From Planctomycetota bacterium (GTDB lineage: Bacteria > Planctomycetota > UBA1135 > UBA2386): a stretch of 64,000 nucleotides of DNA. The notes beneath the pieces are model-generated. The model was not told where the DNA came from and searched no databases. It saw nothing but the letters and a program-made list of their open reading frames with translations. Positions 26,592 through 49,185 of the stretch are shown here, in pieces. The position numbers and the translations under genes were made by a program. Where the stretch lies: the NCBI GenBank assembly GCA_046290465.1, contig JBKAGP010000001.1, forward strand, positions 2,720,001 through 2,784,000, given 5' to 3'. Every line of letters begins with the position of its first letter. The stretch's first letter is position 1.

Positions 26592-27686
26592 CTACTTGTC
26601 GCCGCCGTCCTCGGTCATCTTGGCGACGAGGTCCTTGGCGATGCGGGTCGCCTCCTCGCCGTCGTGGCCGCGGTAGTGGATCTTGAACTCGCTGTCCAGG
26701 ATCACGACCGTCGGCCAGCCCTTGACCGCCCAGTCGGTGGAGATCTTCTCCGGCCGACCTTCGTTCTGGTTCTGGAAGCTGCGCCAGTTGAGCTTGTTCT
26801 CGGCGATGGCCTTCTTGGCGCGCTCGATCGTGCTGTCACTGTTGACACCGACCAGAGCGAACGGCTTGTCCTTCATCTCTTCCACGAGCGACCGCTCGTG
26901 CGGGTACATGGCCCGGCAAGGGCCTCACCAGTCGCCCCAGAAGTCGAGGAAGATGACCTTGCCCTTGTAGTCGCTCAGCTTGAACGCCACGCCGTCGAGG
27001 TCGACGCCCGCGATGTCGGGGGCCGTGCAGCCGATCCCGAACTTCTCGCGCTCGTCGATCGCGCCGTTGATCTGGCCGACGAGGCCCTTGTCCTCGACCT
27101 TCCCGGCGATCGCGAGCAGCTTGGCGCGCGCCGCCTGGTACTCGTCACCCTCGATGTCGGCCGAGGTGATCGTCTTCTGGTGCGTCGCGAACAACGCCCA
27201 ACCGCGAACGTCCACCGACTTGCTCTGCATGAGCTTCGCGCGGGCGTCCTTGGCGAACTCCGGCGACACGATGCGATCGAGGAACGGGATCATGCGACCC
27301 ATCGCCGCCAGCTTGGGGCTGTCGATGTGGTCCTTCAGCAGCACCTCGAGGGCCGGACGCGCCTTCTGCTGGTCGAGGTTCACGACCATCATCAGGAAGT
27401 CGATGGCCTCGTCCTTGCCGGCGTAGTCCTTCGCGTATTCCAGCGCCTTGTCGGCGACCGGACCGAAGTCGGGGCGCATGCGCATCGCGCGAACGGGCTT
27501 GCCGTCCTGCGGCTTCTGCGCCTGCTTCATCGAATCGCGCCACTCCTTGACCGCCTGCTGCTGCAGGTCATTGAGCTCCTGCATGCGCTCGGCGGCGCTC
27601 GGCGCCTTGGTGACGGGTTTGGCGGGCTCCTGCGCGGCGACCGTGCCGAGCAGCAGAACCCCCGCCAGGAGGGATAGGGTCTTCAT
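26592..27686 (-). CDS. Exported TlpA/ResA-like thiol-disulfide oxidoreductase, predicted selenoprotein (UGA at 26925-26927, W-U-G-P-C); 364 aa with read-through
   Basis: ORFs 26925..27686 and 26592..26909 are in one frame: ...KGKVIFLDFWGDW-TGA-GPCRAMYPHERSLV...VGVNSD...WPT; signal peptide; SECIS-like hairpin. Confidence 0.88.
26883..26900 (-). promoter_or_regulatory. Candidate bacterial SECIS of the TlpA-like gene
   Basis: mRNA CACGAGC-GGUC-GCUCGUG perfect stem starting 25 nt after the UGA. Confidence 0.6.
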
Positions 27687-46316: not shown

Positions 46317-47402
46317 ATGCGCACCGCTGCCTACGTCTGCTCCGGCTGGCACCCGATCCCCGAACGGGACCGTTCGTTCCACCCTGGCTTCACCGAATGG
46401 GAGCTGGTGCGGGCCTGCCGGCCGCGATTCGACGGCCACGCCCAACCGAAGGTGCCGCTGCTCGGCGAGTATGACGACCGCGACCCGGCCGAGTTCGGCC
46501 GCCGCGTGCTGCTGGCGCGCGAGCACGGCGTCGACGCGTTCGTGTTCGGGGTGTTCTGGTGCCGCGGCAAGCGGGTGTTCGAGCAGGGCCTCGACGTCGG
46601 CTTCCTCGGCGGACCGGCCGGCCGCGAGGTGCCGTTCGCGTGCATGTGGGCCAACCGCATGCCGCGCCGCGTGCTGCCGGTCCGGCGCGCCGAGGCGCCG
46701 GTGCTCGATCCATCTCGCGAGGTGCCGTCCGACGTCGACGACTTCGTGCGATTCGTCGCGATGCTGGCCGAGCGCTACTTCGTGCGCGACCACTACGTGA
46801 CGGTCGGTGGCCGCAGCTACCTGTCGATCTTCGACTCGACGTTCTTCGTGCAGGAGCTCGGCCTCGACGGCGCCAAGGCCGCGATCCGCGCGGCGCGCGC
46901 GTGGCTGCGAGAGCACGGCCACCGCGACCTGCACCTGGCGGCGATCGAACCCAACCCCGACGTGATCGGCTCGGTGCGCGAGCTGGGCTTCGACAGCGTC
47001 ACCCACTACGTGTTCCTGCCGGACTGGAAGGGGCGGTTCGAGCAGGACTACCGCGAGTACGCCGAGCTGCGCGCGACCCAGTGGCACACGTTCGCGGAGC
47101 GGTCGGGGCTGCCGTACATGCCCTCGGTCGCTCCCGGATGGGACGCGAGCCCGCGCGGCGCCGACTTCGGCGAGACGCGCCCGGACAAGTACCCGTGGTC
47201 GCCGGTCGTGACGGGCGAGCACCCGGAGCTGTTCGAGGCTGCACTCCGGCGCGCCCGCGCATTCCGTTCGCCGGTCGGCTGCGACGATCCGCTGCTGATG
47301 ATCGCGTCGCTCAACGAATGGAGCGAAGGCCACTATCTGGAGCCCGACGAGCGCTTCGGCCACGGCTGGCTCGAGGCGGTGCGCTCGGCGACGCGCCCCT
47401 AG
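46317..47402 (+). CDS. GH99-like / WbsX-family glycoside hydrolase domain protein
   Basis: PLLGEYD, LAREHGVDAF, MWAN, PGWDASPR, NEWSEGHYLEPD. Confidence 0.85.
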   Translation: MRTAAYVCSGWHPIPERDRSFHPGFTEWELVRACRPRFDGHAQPKVPLLGEYDDRDPAEFGRRVLLAREHGVDAFVFGVFWCRGKRVFEQGLDVGFLGGPAGREVPFACMWANRMPRRVLPVRRAEAPVLDPSREVPSDVDDFVRFVAMLAERYFVRDHYVTVGGRSYLSIFDSTFFVQELGLDGAKAAIRAARAWLREHGHRDLHLAAIEPNPDVIGSVRELGFDSVTHYVFLPDWKGRFEQDYREYAELRATQWHTFAERSGLPYMPSVAPGWDASPRGADFGETRPDKYPWSPVVTGEHPELFEAALRRARAFRSPVGCDDPLLMIASLNEWSEGHYLEPDERFGHGWLEAVRSATRP

Positions 47403-47466
47403 AGGGACCCGCGGTCGAAGCGACGGGATCGATGGCATCGACGAGGCCGTGGCCTATCCTGGTCGC

Positions 47467-47904
47467 ATGCTCGATACAGGCTCCCCGGCACCGGACTTCT
47501 CGGTGCTCGACGACGAAGGCAACACGCGCACGCTCGGTGAGTTCGCCGGCAAGACGCTCGTGCTGTGGTTCTACCCGAAGGCCGACACCCCCGGCTGAAC
47601 GATCGAAGGCAAGGGCTTCCGTGATCTGAAGCCCCAATTCGACGCCAAGAACGCGGTGATCTGCGGCGTCTCGTTCGACTCCGTCGAGGCGAACCACGCG
47701 TTCCGCGAGAAGTTCGACTTTCCCTACGCGCTGCTGTGCGACACCGACAAGCAGCTCGGCATCGCGTGCGGCGCGGCTGACGACGCGAGCGCGGGCTACC
47801 CCAAGCGCATCTCGATCGTGATCGGCCCCGACGGCAAGGTCGCGCAGGTCTACGGCGAGGTGAAGCCGGCCGAGCACCCGCAACAGGTGCTCGACGCGCT
47901 GTAG
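47467..47904 (+). CDS. bcp: BCP/PrxQ peroxiredoxin, predicted selenoprotein (UGA at 47596-47598 replaces the peroxidatic Cys); 145 aa
   Basis: MLDTGSPAPDFSVLDDEG...VLWFYPKADTPG-TGA-TIEGKGFRD...GVSFD...F.EKF.FPY.LL.D...KRIS.VIGPDG in one frame. Confidence 0.9.
47613..47634 (+). promoter_or_regulatory. Candidate bacterial SECIS of bcp
   Basis: GGGCUUC-CGUGAUCU-GAAGCCC stem-loop starting 15 nt after the UGA. Confidence 0.6.
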
Positions 47905-47907
47905 CGA

Positions 47908-49185
47908 TCAGGCGCCGTCCTGCTGGCCGCCATCCTGCTGGCCACCGTCTTCCTGGGGGCCATCCGGCCCCCAGGGATTGGTCGCCCGGCGGCCGCCGCC
48001 GTGGCGCACCGCGCCTTCGCCGTGGCGGTCGCGGATCGCGTCCATCGCCTGCAGCAGCTTGCTGCGCTGCTCGCTCCGTTCGGCCTGCGGCTGTTCTTCG
48101 GCGACCGCGAACAGCGAGCCCTGCACCGGCTTCGGCGCCGCCGCTTCCTCGGCGTCGACCAGGTCGGCCCCGGTCACGCCCAGCAGCCGGATCGGCCTGC
48201 GGCCGTCCCAGACCGTATCGAGCAGCTCACCGGCGACGCGGAACAGCTCGAGATCGTCGTCGGTCGGCGCCCCCTTGCGCTGCCGCTGCGAGGTCTCGAA
48301 CGGCGGGTGCCGCAGCTTGAGCCGCACGACGCTCGCGCGCTGGCCGGCGCGGCGCAGGCGGCGGCCGACCATCTCGGCGAGCTGCAGCAGCACCTCGCGC
48401 ACCTCGTCGCGGCCGGCCAGGTCCTCGGCGAACGTCATCTCGTGGCCGATCGACCTGGCGGCGCGGTCGCGCACCACCCGCCGTTCGTCCAGCCCGTTCG
48501 CGAGCACGAACAGGTGCGCCCCGAGCTTGTCGCCGAAGCCGTCGACGAGCTGCTGGCGCGAACGGGACTGCACGTCGCGGATCGAGCGCAGGCCGGCCCG
48601 CTCCAGCAGCGCGCGCGTCGCCGGCCCGACGCCCCAAAGGCGCGACAGCGGCAGGTCCGCCAGGAACGCCTTCTCGGTGCCCGGTTCGACCACGACCAGC
48701 CCGTCCGGCTTGTCCAGGTCGCTGGCGACCTTGGCGACGTACTTCGACGTGGCCACGCCGACCGACACCCGCAGCCGGGTCCGTTCGAACACCTCGCGCT
48801 TGATGCGCTCGGCGATCGCCCGGCCGTCGCCGAACAGCGCGCGGCTGCCGGTCACGTCGAGGAACGCCTCGTCGAGCGACAGCGGTTCGACGTCGTCGGT
48901 GAACGTGTCGAACACCTCGTGGATCTGCTCGGAGATGCGCGCGTAGTGCGCCATGCGCGGCTCGACGAAGATGCCGTCCGGACACAGCTGCCTGGCGCGC
49001 TTGCCCGGCATCGCCGAATGCACCCCGAACTTGCGCGCCTCGTAGCTGGCCGTGCTGACCACCTGCCGCGCGCCGTAGCCACCGATGATCACCGGCCGGC
49101 CGCGCAATTCCGGTCGGTCCCGCTGCTCGACGGCCGCGTAGAACGCGTCCATGTCGGCGTGCAGGATCGTGCGCGGAGCGGTCAC
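47908..49185 (-). CDS. dinB: DNA polymerase IV
   Basis: HADMDAFYAAVE, ASYEARKFGVHSAM, SLDEAFLD, AKVASDLDKPDG. Confidence 0.95.
   Translation of the reverse strand: MTAPRTILHADMDAFYAAVEQRDRPELRGRPVIIGGYGARQVVSTASYEARKFGVHSAMPGKRARQLCPDGIFVEPRMAHYARISEQIHEVFDTFTDDVEPLSLDEAFLDVTGSRALFGDGRAIAERIKREVFERTRLRVSVGVATSKYVAKVASDLDKPDGLVVVEPGTEKAFLADLPLSRLWGVGPATRALLERAGLRSIRDVQSRSRQQLVDGFGDKLGAHLFVLANGLDERRVVRDRAARSIGHEMTFAEDLAGRDEVREVLLQLAEMVGRRLRRAGQRASVVRLKLRHPPFETSQRQRKGAPTDDDLELFRVAGELLDTVWDGRRPIRLLGVTGADLVDAEEAAAPKPVQGSLFAVAEEQPQAERSEQRSKLLQAMDAIRDRHGEGAVRHGGGRRATNPWGPDGPQEDGGQQDGGQQDGA

What the first reader, a model, noticed from the sequence alone, without database searches (positions are those of the whole stretch)
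47467..47904. Second hidden selenoprotein: BCP peroxiredoxin with UGA at the peroxidatic cysteine
Seen: ATG 47467 opens ...FYPKADTPG-TGA-TIEGKGFRD... and continues in frame to TAG 47904; the ORF track shows only the last 82 aa. Known: BCP/PrxQ has PxxxTxxC with peroxidatic Cys (FYPKADTPGCT.E). The usual resolving Cys five residues later is absent (TIEGK), though three Cys occur further downstream. Inference: a Sec peroxiredoxin. Two independent catalytic-site UGAs within 21 kb make chance nonsense mutation unlikely and suggest a selenoprotein-rich organism.
Basis: partly seen in the sequence, partly recalled or inferred. Interest (0 to 1): 0.82.

Follow-up and report, generated by a model that had tools for sequence, protein, structure and literature searches.

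The report
Selenocysteine peroxiredoxin in selenium-rich planctomycete
The apparent stop codon in this small antioxidant gene sits exactly at the catalytic site and is conserved across many bacteria, so it very likely encodes the rare amino acid selenocysteine; the enzyme type has been known since 2005, but its likely oxygen-breathing host carries about 38 predicted selenoprotein genes, which is unusually many.

Summary
Observation confirmed. Window 47467-47904 (+) is a 145-codon BCP/PrxQ peroxiredoxin with TGA at codon 44, the peroxidatic position (PxxxTxxU). It is not an error: the TGA is unchanged in contigs from independent runs, and 91 of 103 distinct homologous loci have TGA there (12 have Cys). 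The genome holds selA, selB, selD and tRNA-Sec. A SECIS-like hairpin follows the codon; alone it is unremarkable, but a hairpin of -7.5 kcal/mol or better is seen in 76 of 91 Sec loci against 2 of 12 Cys loci. Both canonical resolving-Cys positions are lost (Lys49, Arg80), so it likely works as a '1-Sec' enzyme. Sec-Prx (COG1225, TxxU) has been catalogued since 2005, and this scan noted it before in four other genomes, so the gene is a new member of a known family. That is below the published records (57, 63) but runs against the stated rule that aerobes rarely keep selenoproteins. No protein-level evidence exists.

The parts
47467..47904 (+). BCP/PrxQ peroxiredoxin gene, 145 aa when UGA is read as Sec
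   Evidence: best NCBIfam PRK09437, E 1e-27, 97 bits, below cut-off 140; PF00578, 99.9 bits, cut-off 26
47575..47598 (+). Active-site motif P37-x-x-x-T41-x-x-U44
   Evidence: sequence; P37, T41 and position 44 invariant in a 60-row alignment with Sec read as Cys
47596..47598 (+). In-frame TGA, predicted selenocysteine codon at the peroxidatic position
47613..47634 (+). SECIS-like hairpin: 7-bp stem, 8-nt loop starting 21 nt after UGA with G then U at loop positions 2-3
   Evidence: weak on its own, supported by conservation
47611..47613 (+). Lys49, at the helix-alpha2 resolving-Cys position (+5)
   Evidence: sequence; Cys here in 11 of 12 Cys-form and 40 of 91 Sec-form homologues
47704..47706 (+). 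Arg80, aligned to the helix-alpha3 Cys of Xanthomonas BCP
   Evidence: alignments (wild type against the C84S entry named)
47806..47808 (+). Arg114, likely the catalytic arginine
   Evidence: invariant; aligned to Arg of solved BCPs
47737..47739 (+). Cys91 (LLCD), family-conserved but also present in forms that keep the resolving Cys
   Evidence: Cys in 96 of 103 homologues; Ser in solved BCPs
47455..47460 (+). -10-like hexamer 6 nt before the ATG, no Shine-Dalgarno; likely leaderless start (inferred)
   Evidence: TAnnnT 6-7 nt before ATG in 13 of 13 own and same-genus rows; the two-hexamer promoter scan found nothing
26592..27686 (-). The other UGA gene of the window: TlpA-like protein with W-U-G-P-C (TGA 26925-26927); context, not linked to the BCP gene
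   Evidence: PF00578 match spans the UGA; TGA kept in G014

Best explanation
This is a BCP/PrxQ-type peroxiredoxin gene with a conserved in-frame UGA at the catalytic position, which is very likely read as selenocysteine to give a full 145-residue peroxide-reducing enzyme that lacks both standard resolving cysteines. Shown: the frame, motif, fold prediction, sel genes, conserved UGA and hairpin. Inferred: SelB binds the hairpin 15-36 nt downstream and delivers Sec-tRNA; the Sec44 selenolate, held by Thr41 and Arg114, attacks H2O2 or organic hydroperoxides; the selenenic acid is then reduced by an outside thiol rather than by an internal disulfide, most likely glutathione/glutaredoxin or thioredoxin (genes for both routes are present). 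It is the only BCP found in this genome, and the only other PxxxT/SxxC/U protein found (AhpC type) also has UGA, so peroxiredoxin activity would depend on selenium.
For: selA, selB, selD over curated cut-offs, selD with its own TGA; tRNA-Sec UCA. TGA in 91 of 103 distinct homologous loci across Planctomycetota, Acidobacteriota, Myxococcota and others, TGC/TGT in the other 12, no other codon. 12 of 14 same-genus genomes have a 75-86% identical copy, all with TGA. Hairpin at -7.5 kcal/mol or better in 76 of 91 Sec against 2 of 12 Cys loci; one stem pair varies among A-U, G-U and G-C within one register and is C-G in the own-genus register; the loop uses CGT-GAT, 0.8% of 7,984 Arg-Asp dicodons in this genome, and CGT is kept in 33 of 35 loci of this hairpin class. 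AlphaFold2 pLDDT 97 with Cys in place of Sec; best Foldseek matches are BCP/PrxQ, TM about 0.9. Glutathione synthase, thioredoxin reductase and two glutaredoxin domains present. No Cys BCP paralogue in G000.
Against: No protein, selenium-labelling or activity data. The hairpin alone is weak: z = -1.17; 553 of 5000 synonymous recodings and 160 of 1856 ordinary TGA gene ends do as well. The reductant is a guess. Cys-Sec distances could not be measured because model coordinates are not returned. Homologues were the best hits to a Sec query, so the Sec share is biased upward. The link between Sec and loss of the resolving Cys (Fisher p 0.002) did not survive the tree-aware test (5 independent pairs, median p 0.5).
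Confidence: 0.93

Rival explanations
1. Sec is inserted, but the enzyme resolves through an internal or inter-subunit selenylsulfide with Cys91 (or Cys66/Cys101), making it an atypical two-residue peroxiredoxin with a new resolving position.
For: Cys91 is kept in 96 of 103 homologues; Cys66 occurs only in 13 rows, all Sec forms without the +5 Cys.
Against: Cys91 is equally present in forms that keep the +5 Cys (48 of 51) and corresponds to Ser in solved BCPs; Cys66 and Cys91 lie in core strands of the model; Cys101 is in only 10 of 103.
Confidence: 0.12
2. The TGA is a nonsense mutation or a sequencing error, and the gene is a pseudogene or makes two fragments.
For: TGA is the commonest stop in this genome (1977 of 3282 training ORFs); an in-frame GTG at 47656 could start an 82-aa tail; apparent nonsense TGAs exist elsewhere in the genome (C1:4533750, 4048606).
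Against: Same TGA in 91 of 103 loci from several phyla with both flanks conserved; unchanged in seven runs other than the possible source; never TAA or TAG at this codon.
Confidence: 0.02
3. UGA is read as another residue (Trp or Cys) through a changed genetic code or suppression, giving an ordinary or inactive peroxiredoxin.
For: None direct.
Against: UGA ends most genes; the only UCA-anticodon tRNA is called tRNA-Sec; accepted in-frame UGAs lie mostly at redox motifs.
Confidence: 0.02

Closest known systems
Sec-containing peroxiredoxin 'Prx' (COG1225 Bcp / PF00578, motif TxxU) of Zhang, Fomenko and Gladyshev 2005 (PMC1088965: 43 Sargasso Sea genes) and later catalogues (PMC9312934, PMC13188914)
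   Same: Bcp-type Prx with UGA at the peroxidatic site, PxxxTxxU motif, in-frame downstream hairpin, marine setting
   Different: Host is a Planctomycetota lineage; no resolving Cys at alpha2 or alpha3. The passages I read do not discuss resolving residues or hairpin registers. I could not fetch the catalogue's representative protein for a direct comparison.
Cys BCP/PrxQ enzymes with solved structures (Sulfolobus Bcp1 3DRN, Xanthomonas PrxQ 3GKK/5IIZ series, Xylella 3IXR)
   Same: Fold (TM about 0.9), Pro, Thr and Arg of the active site, 30-36% identity
   Different: They use Cys; Xanthomonas PrxQ has a helix-alpha3 Cys where this protein has Arg80
Eubacterium acidaminophilum PrxU (experimentally shown Sec-Prx; Sohling 2001, seen only as a reference in PMC13188914 and PMC9312934; NCBIfam NF040737)
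   Same: Sec at the peroxidatic site of a peroxiredoxin
   Different: Weak match (33.9 bits, cut-off 270); PrxU is AhpC-like and closer to the genome's second Sec-Prx at C1:1208315 (131.8 bits)
Selenoprotein-rich bacteria: Syntrophobacter fumaroxidans (39), Olavius delta-1 symbiont (at least 57), a Methylomirabilota MAG (63)
   Same: Dozens of UGA-Sec genes; 38 candidates here
   Different: The most enriched organisms are described as predominantly anaerobic (PMC13188914 section 10) and the Syntrophobacter set is dominated by FdhA, Frh and Hdr (PMC1794560 table 3); this genome has two full heme-copper oxidase subunit-I matches and no UGA in its four molybdopterin-domain matches

Membership tests
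Peroxiredoxin superfamily | Pxxx(T/S)xxC motif (here U) plus a distant conserved Arg | tested here: met
   P37, T41, U44, R114; definition from PMC4749874
BCP/PrxQ subfamily | Best profile and structure matches are BCP/PrxQ; short, about 150 aa, no C-terminal arm | tested here: met
   145 aa
BCP/PrxQ subfamily | Score above a curated BCP equivalog cut-off | tested here: not met
   PRK09437 97 bits against 140; NF053650 93 against 260. These are lineage-specific models, so this excludes the equivalogs, not the subfamily
Atypical 2-Cys PrxQ | Resolving Cys in helix alpha2 (+5) or alpha3 | tested here: not met
   Lys49 and Arg80
Sec-Prx (TxxU, COG1225/PF00578) | UGA aligned to the peroxidatic Cys of homologues and conserved | tested here: met
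Sec-Prx (TxxU, COG1225/PF00578) | Host has selA, selB, selC, selD | tested here: met
Sec-Prx (TxxU, COG1225/PF00578) | bSECIS consensus: 3-9 nt loop, 4-16 bp stem, G in first two loop positions, 16-37 nt spacing, energy -7.5 kcal/mol or lower | tested here: met
   8-nt loop, 7 bp, G at position 2, 21 nt, -10.7 (model). Low specificity: 371 of 1856 ordinary TGA ends also pass
Sec-Prx (TxxU, COG1225/PF00578) | Assignment to COG1225 itself | not testable with these tools
   No COG library; PF00578 met and Bcp-type best hits
Sec-Prx (TxxU, COG1225/PF00578) | Selenium incorporated; peroxidase activity | not testable with these tools
   needs experiment

The most novel reading that the evidence does not exclude
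An oxygen-respiring marine Planctomycetota genus runs much of its antioxidant and envelope redox machinery on selenium, with about 38 selenoprotein genes, no Sec formate dehydrogenase and no Cys back-up for either peroxiredoxin; its BCP is a '1-Sec' enzyme from a cross-phylum family in which the resolving Cys was dropped repeatedly and the SECIS hairpin was rebuilt in three registers over the same codons.
Probability: 0.6. Interest if true: 0.55.

Novelty: new member of a known kind. Interest (0 to 1): 0.3.

Why it matters
The gene itself is a correct call of a known kind. Its value is as a marker. (1) It anchors a selenoproteome of about 38 genes in a likely aerobe, against the review statement that aerobic bacteria rarely retain selenoproteins (PMC13188914, section 10). 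(2) The family offers natural Sec/Cys and with/without-resolving-Cys pairs among close relatives, a ready test of whether Sec makes the resolving Cys dispensable. (3) Three hairpin registers over the same codons show how a SECIS and a protein sequence share bases. (4) A plain ORF call keeps only an 82-residue tail, so such genes are easy to miss.

Tried and rejected
Rfam scan of the window: no match. Promoter and terminator scan: none. Hairpin energy as stand-alone evidence: rejected. Sec-versus-resolving-Cys correlation: nominally significant but not after allowing for kinship; the careful tree did not finish, so the quick tree was used. First intrinsic screens gave as many TAG as TGA hits and could not count selenoproteins alone; a nucleotide-level comparative filter was too strict and missed known sites, so it was replaced by protein-level screens. 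37 of 78 candidate UGA sites were rejected as ordinary stops between coupled genes, insertion-sequence remnants or unsupported (for example C1:3076350, 3129938, 3159321, 4048606, 4533750); most rejections rest on domain boundaries and my reading, not on a comparative test. Expression: one 248-nt contig of a metatranscriptome (X20, 7 differences, depth 2.5) spans the TGA, but no silent control was laid, so it is not counted as evidence. Neighbouring genes (WbsX-like upstream, dinB convergent downstream) are syntenic only within the genus and suggest no redox operon. Literature searches with no paper.

Full report
Observation. The sequence is as described: ATG 47467, TGA 47596-47598 after FYPKADTPG, and an open frame to TAG 47904. 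The ORF list has only the 82-aa tail. Read through, the 145-aa protein matches PF00578 (99.9 bits) and best matches the bcp model PRK09437, though below its cut-off. Its closest solved relatives by sequence and by predicted fold are BCP/PrxQ enzymes (the model has Cys in place of Sec). The TGA aligns to their peroxidatic residue, and Pro37, Thr41 and Arg114 are invariant in a 60-row alignment.

Not an error or a nonsense change. Contigs spanning the site in runs X2, X3, X4 and X6, X9, X18, X20 differ elsewhere but not at the TGA; X1 may be the source and is left out. Of 110 homologous loci from a search of 61 genomes and a GTDB scan, 98 have TGA and 12 have TGC or TGT at this codon. After dropping 7 duplicates the count is 91 and 12 of 103, own locus included. 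These are the best 30 and best 80 hits to a Sec query, so the ratio is biased. Twelve of 14 same-genus genomes have a close copy, all with TGA; in the other two (71% and 84% complete) it was not found with this query. The titles of the closest named hits point mostly to Planctomycetota, which is my basis for the phylum.

Machinery and signal. selA, selB and selD score over their curated cut-offs, selD has its own TGA, and ARAGORN finds tRNA-Sec. A 7-bp hairpin at 47613-47634 meets the bacterial SECIS consensus quoted in PMC13188914. Alone this is weak: z = -1.17, and 553 of 5000 synonymous recodings and 160 of 1856 ordinary TGA gene ends do as well. The comparative signal is stronger. A qualifying hairpin is present in 76 of 91 Sec loci and 2 of 12 Cys loci. 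The Sec loci fall into three registers over the same codons: a 3-nt loop after 17 nt (55 loci, mostly Acidobacteriota), a 7-nt loop after 21 nt (21 loci), and an 8-nt loop after 21 nt (14 loci, this genus and one relative); one locus fits none. Within the 7-nt class one pair varies among A-U, G-U and G-C; within the 3-nt class a G-C pair flips to C-G in 3 of 54 distinct rows. I assigned the registers by fit, so these counts lean towards the structure. The loop uses the rare dicodon CGT-GAT (0.8% of Arg-Asp pairs in this genome), and CGT is kept in 33 of 35 loci of the two 21-nt classes against 3 of 12 Cys loci.

Mechanism. Shown: motif, conserved UGA, machinery, hairpin conservation. Inferred from established peroxiredoxin and Sec chemistry (own knowledge plus PMC4749874 passages): SelB-directed insertion, attack of the selenolate on peroxide, and reduction of the selenenic acid. 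The alpha2 resolving position is Lys49 and the alpha3 position is Arg80. Cys91 is conserved (96 of 103) but also in 48 of the 51 forms that keep the +5 Cys, and is Ser in solved BCPs; Cys66 and Cys101 are rare (13 and 10 of 103). I therefore favour a '1-Sec' cycle with an outside thiol. Glutathione synthase, thioredoxin reductase and two glutaredoxin domains are encoded; which one serves is unknown. The +5 Cys is absent in 51 of 91 Sec forms but only 1 of 12 Cys forms (Fisher p 0.002). On a quick tree with both sites masked, its loss needs at least 16 changes and the Sec/Cys state at least 10, but only 5 independent pairs exist and the sign test is not significant (median p 0.5). The correlation is a lead, not a result. 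Lack of a resolving Cys is not rare in PrxQ: about two thirds have one (PMC4749874).

Is the organism selenoprotein-rich? Twelve of 23 PF00578 matches in the genome contain one TGA; 11 of these I accept and one looks like a nonsense change in a truncated gene. Intrinsic screens and leads from earlier notes gave 78 candidate sites. I accepted 41 sites (43 UGAs) in 38 genes. In 31 genes a family profile covers the UGA; a few of these matches are weak or start at the UGA. They include TlpA- and thioredoxin-like proteins, an AhpC-type Prx, MsrA, SelW-like, ArsC-like, AhpD-like, deiodinase-like, rhodanese, HMA-domain, FG-GAP and MetE-like proteins. Seven genes have no family match but keep TGA across the genus, in 8 to 14 of 14 genomes searched, at the same codon in all 49 loci checked. 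One of them (C1:5828470) is weaker because no Cys form was seen. As a check on misses, 2.38 Mb of relative G014, aligning to 1.57 Mb of this genome, was screened for shared in-frame TGAs: 23 of 40 TGA/TGA pairs in the main screen and 1 of 15 in the relaxed screen were already on my list, and I read the rest as tRNA or tmRNA genes, gene ends or wrong frames. No new candidate appeared, so the total is probably near 40, though the screens are blind to some signal-peptide-proximal sites. None of four molybdopterin-domain matches has a stop. Two full heme-copper oxidase subunit-I matches and algal, coral, marine and aquaculture sources suggest an aerobe; this is inference. No Cys BCP paralogue was found, and a motif scan found only two peroxiredoxin-type sites, both with UGA.

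Comparison with what is known. Sec-Prx with TxxU in COG1225 was reported with 43 Sargasso Sea genes in 2005 (PMC1088965, passages and tables), 12 genome copies in 2006 (PMC1794560, passages and tables), and is listed in the 2022 and 2026 reviews (PMC9312934, passages and table; PMC13188914, passages and sections 5 and 10). Four earlier notes of this scan report the same kind of gene in other genomes. The records for selenoproteome size are 57 and 63, and the 2026 review says aerobic bacteria rarely retain selenoproteins; neither review contains 'planctomycet' in its main text. A 2016 paper reports Sec machinery in four planctomycetes and six putative antioxidant selenoproteins in one (PMC4807772, passages; its supplementary list was not read). 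I found no paper on a selenoprotein-rich planctomycete or on resolving residues in Sec-Prx, but the library lacks most subscription papers, and the study behind the 63-gene record was not seen and may cover this lineage.

Verdict. The finding is real and correctly interpreted. The gene is a new member of a long-known family and scores low on its own. The score of 0.3 reflects the context: about 38 predicted selenoproteins in a likely aerobe, and a family suited to testing whether Sec frees a peroxiredoxin from its resolving Cys.

Noticed in passing
Possible uncatalogued selenoprotein.
   Followed up: partly
G000:C1:3355753 (-), L138:7422-8054: Large ORF with S-G-Y-I-U-I-C-M-D-H, no Pfam or NCBIfam match in the stretch scanned, TGA kept in all 8 genus genomes with a match plus two distant paralogues.
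   Followed up: partly
G000:C1:1208315 (-), L125:1484-2116: Second Sec peroxiredoxin, AhpC/PrxU type, 0.8 kb from a Sec TlpA-like gene.
   Followed up: partly
G000:C1:1516015/1516270, 2991886/2992126, 3216888, 3251155: Four HMA-like genes with signal-peptide-like starts and six UGAs, five of them followed by CGUGA or CGUGC loops like the BCP hairpin.
   Followed up: partly
G000:C1:4807804 and 4807444 (-), L145: Thioredoxin-like plus MsrA-like fusion with two UGAs; a second Sec MsrA at 3811962.
   Followed up: no
window 47455-47469: -10-like TAnnnT 6-7 nt before the ATG in 13 of 13 own and same-genus rows with no Shine-Dalgarno: likely leaderless mRNA.
   Followed up: partly
L073, L099, L054, L112: Cys-form homologues placed among Sec forms on the quick tree, three of them still carrying most of the hairpin sequence: possible Sec-to-Cys reversions, which the 2026 review calls rare; the tree is unrooted.
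   Followed up: partly
L051, L070, L104 and other loci of the 3-nt-loop class: The +5 codon lies in the SECIS stem; Cys TGC to Arg CGC turns a U-G pair into C-G (36 against 18 distinct rows), so the hairpin may favour loss of the resolving Cys.
   Followed up: partly
G000:C1:4533598-4533849 (-): Prx-like fragment with a TGA away from any catalytic motif and no intact N-terminus: likely pseudogene, a useful negative case.
   Followed up: partly
window 46323-47402 (+) and 47908-49185 (-): WbsX-like gene upstream and convergent dinB downstream, whose stop lies 3 bp from the BCP stop; order kept across the genus.
   Followed up: yes
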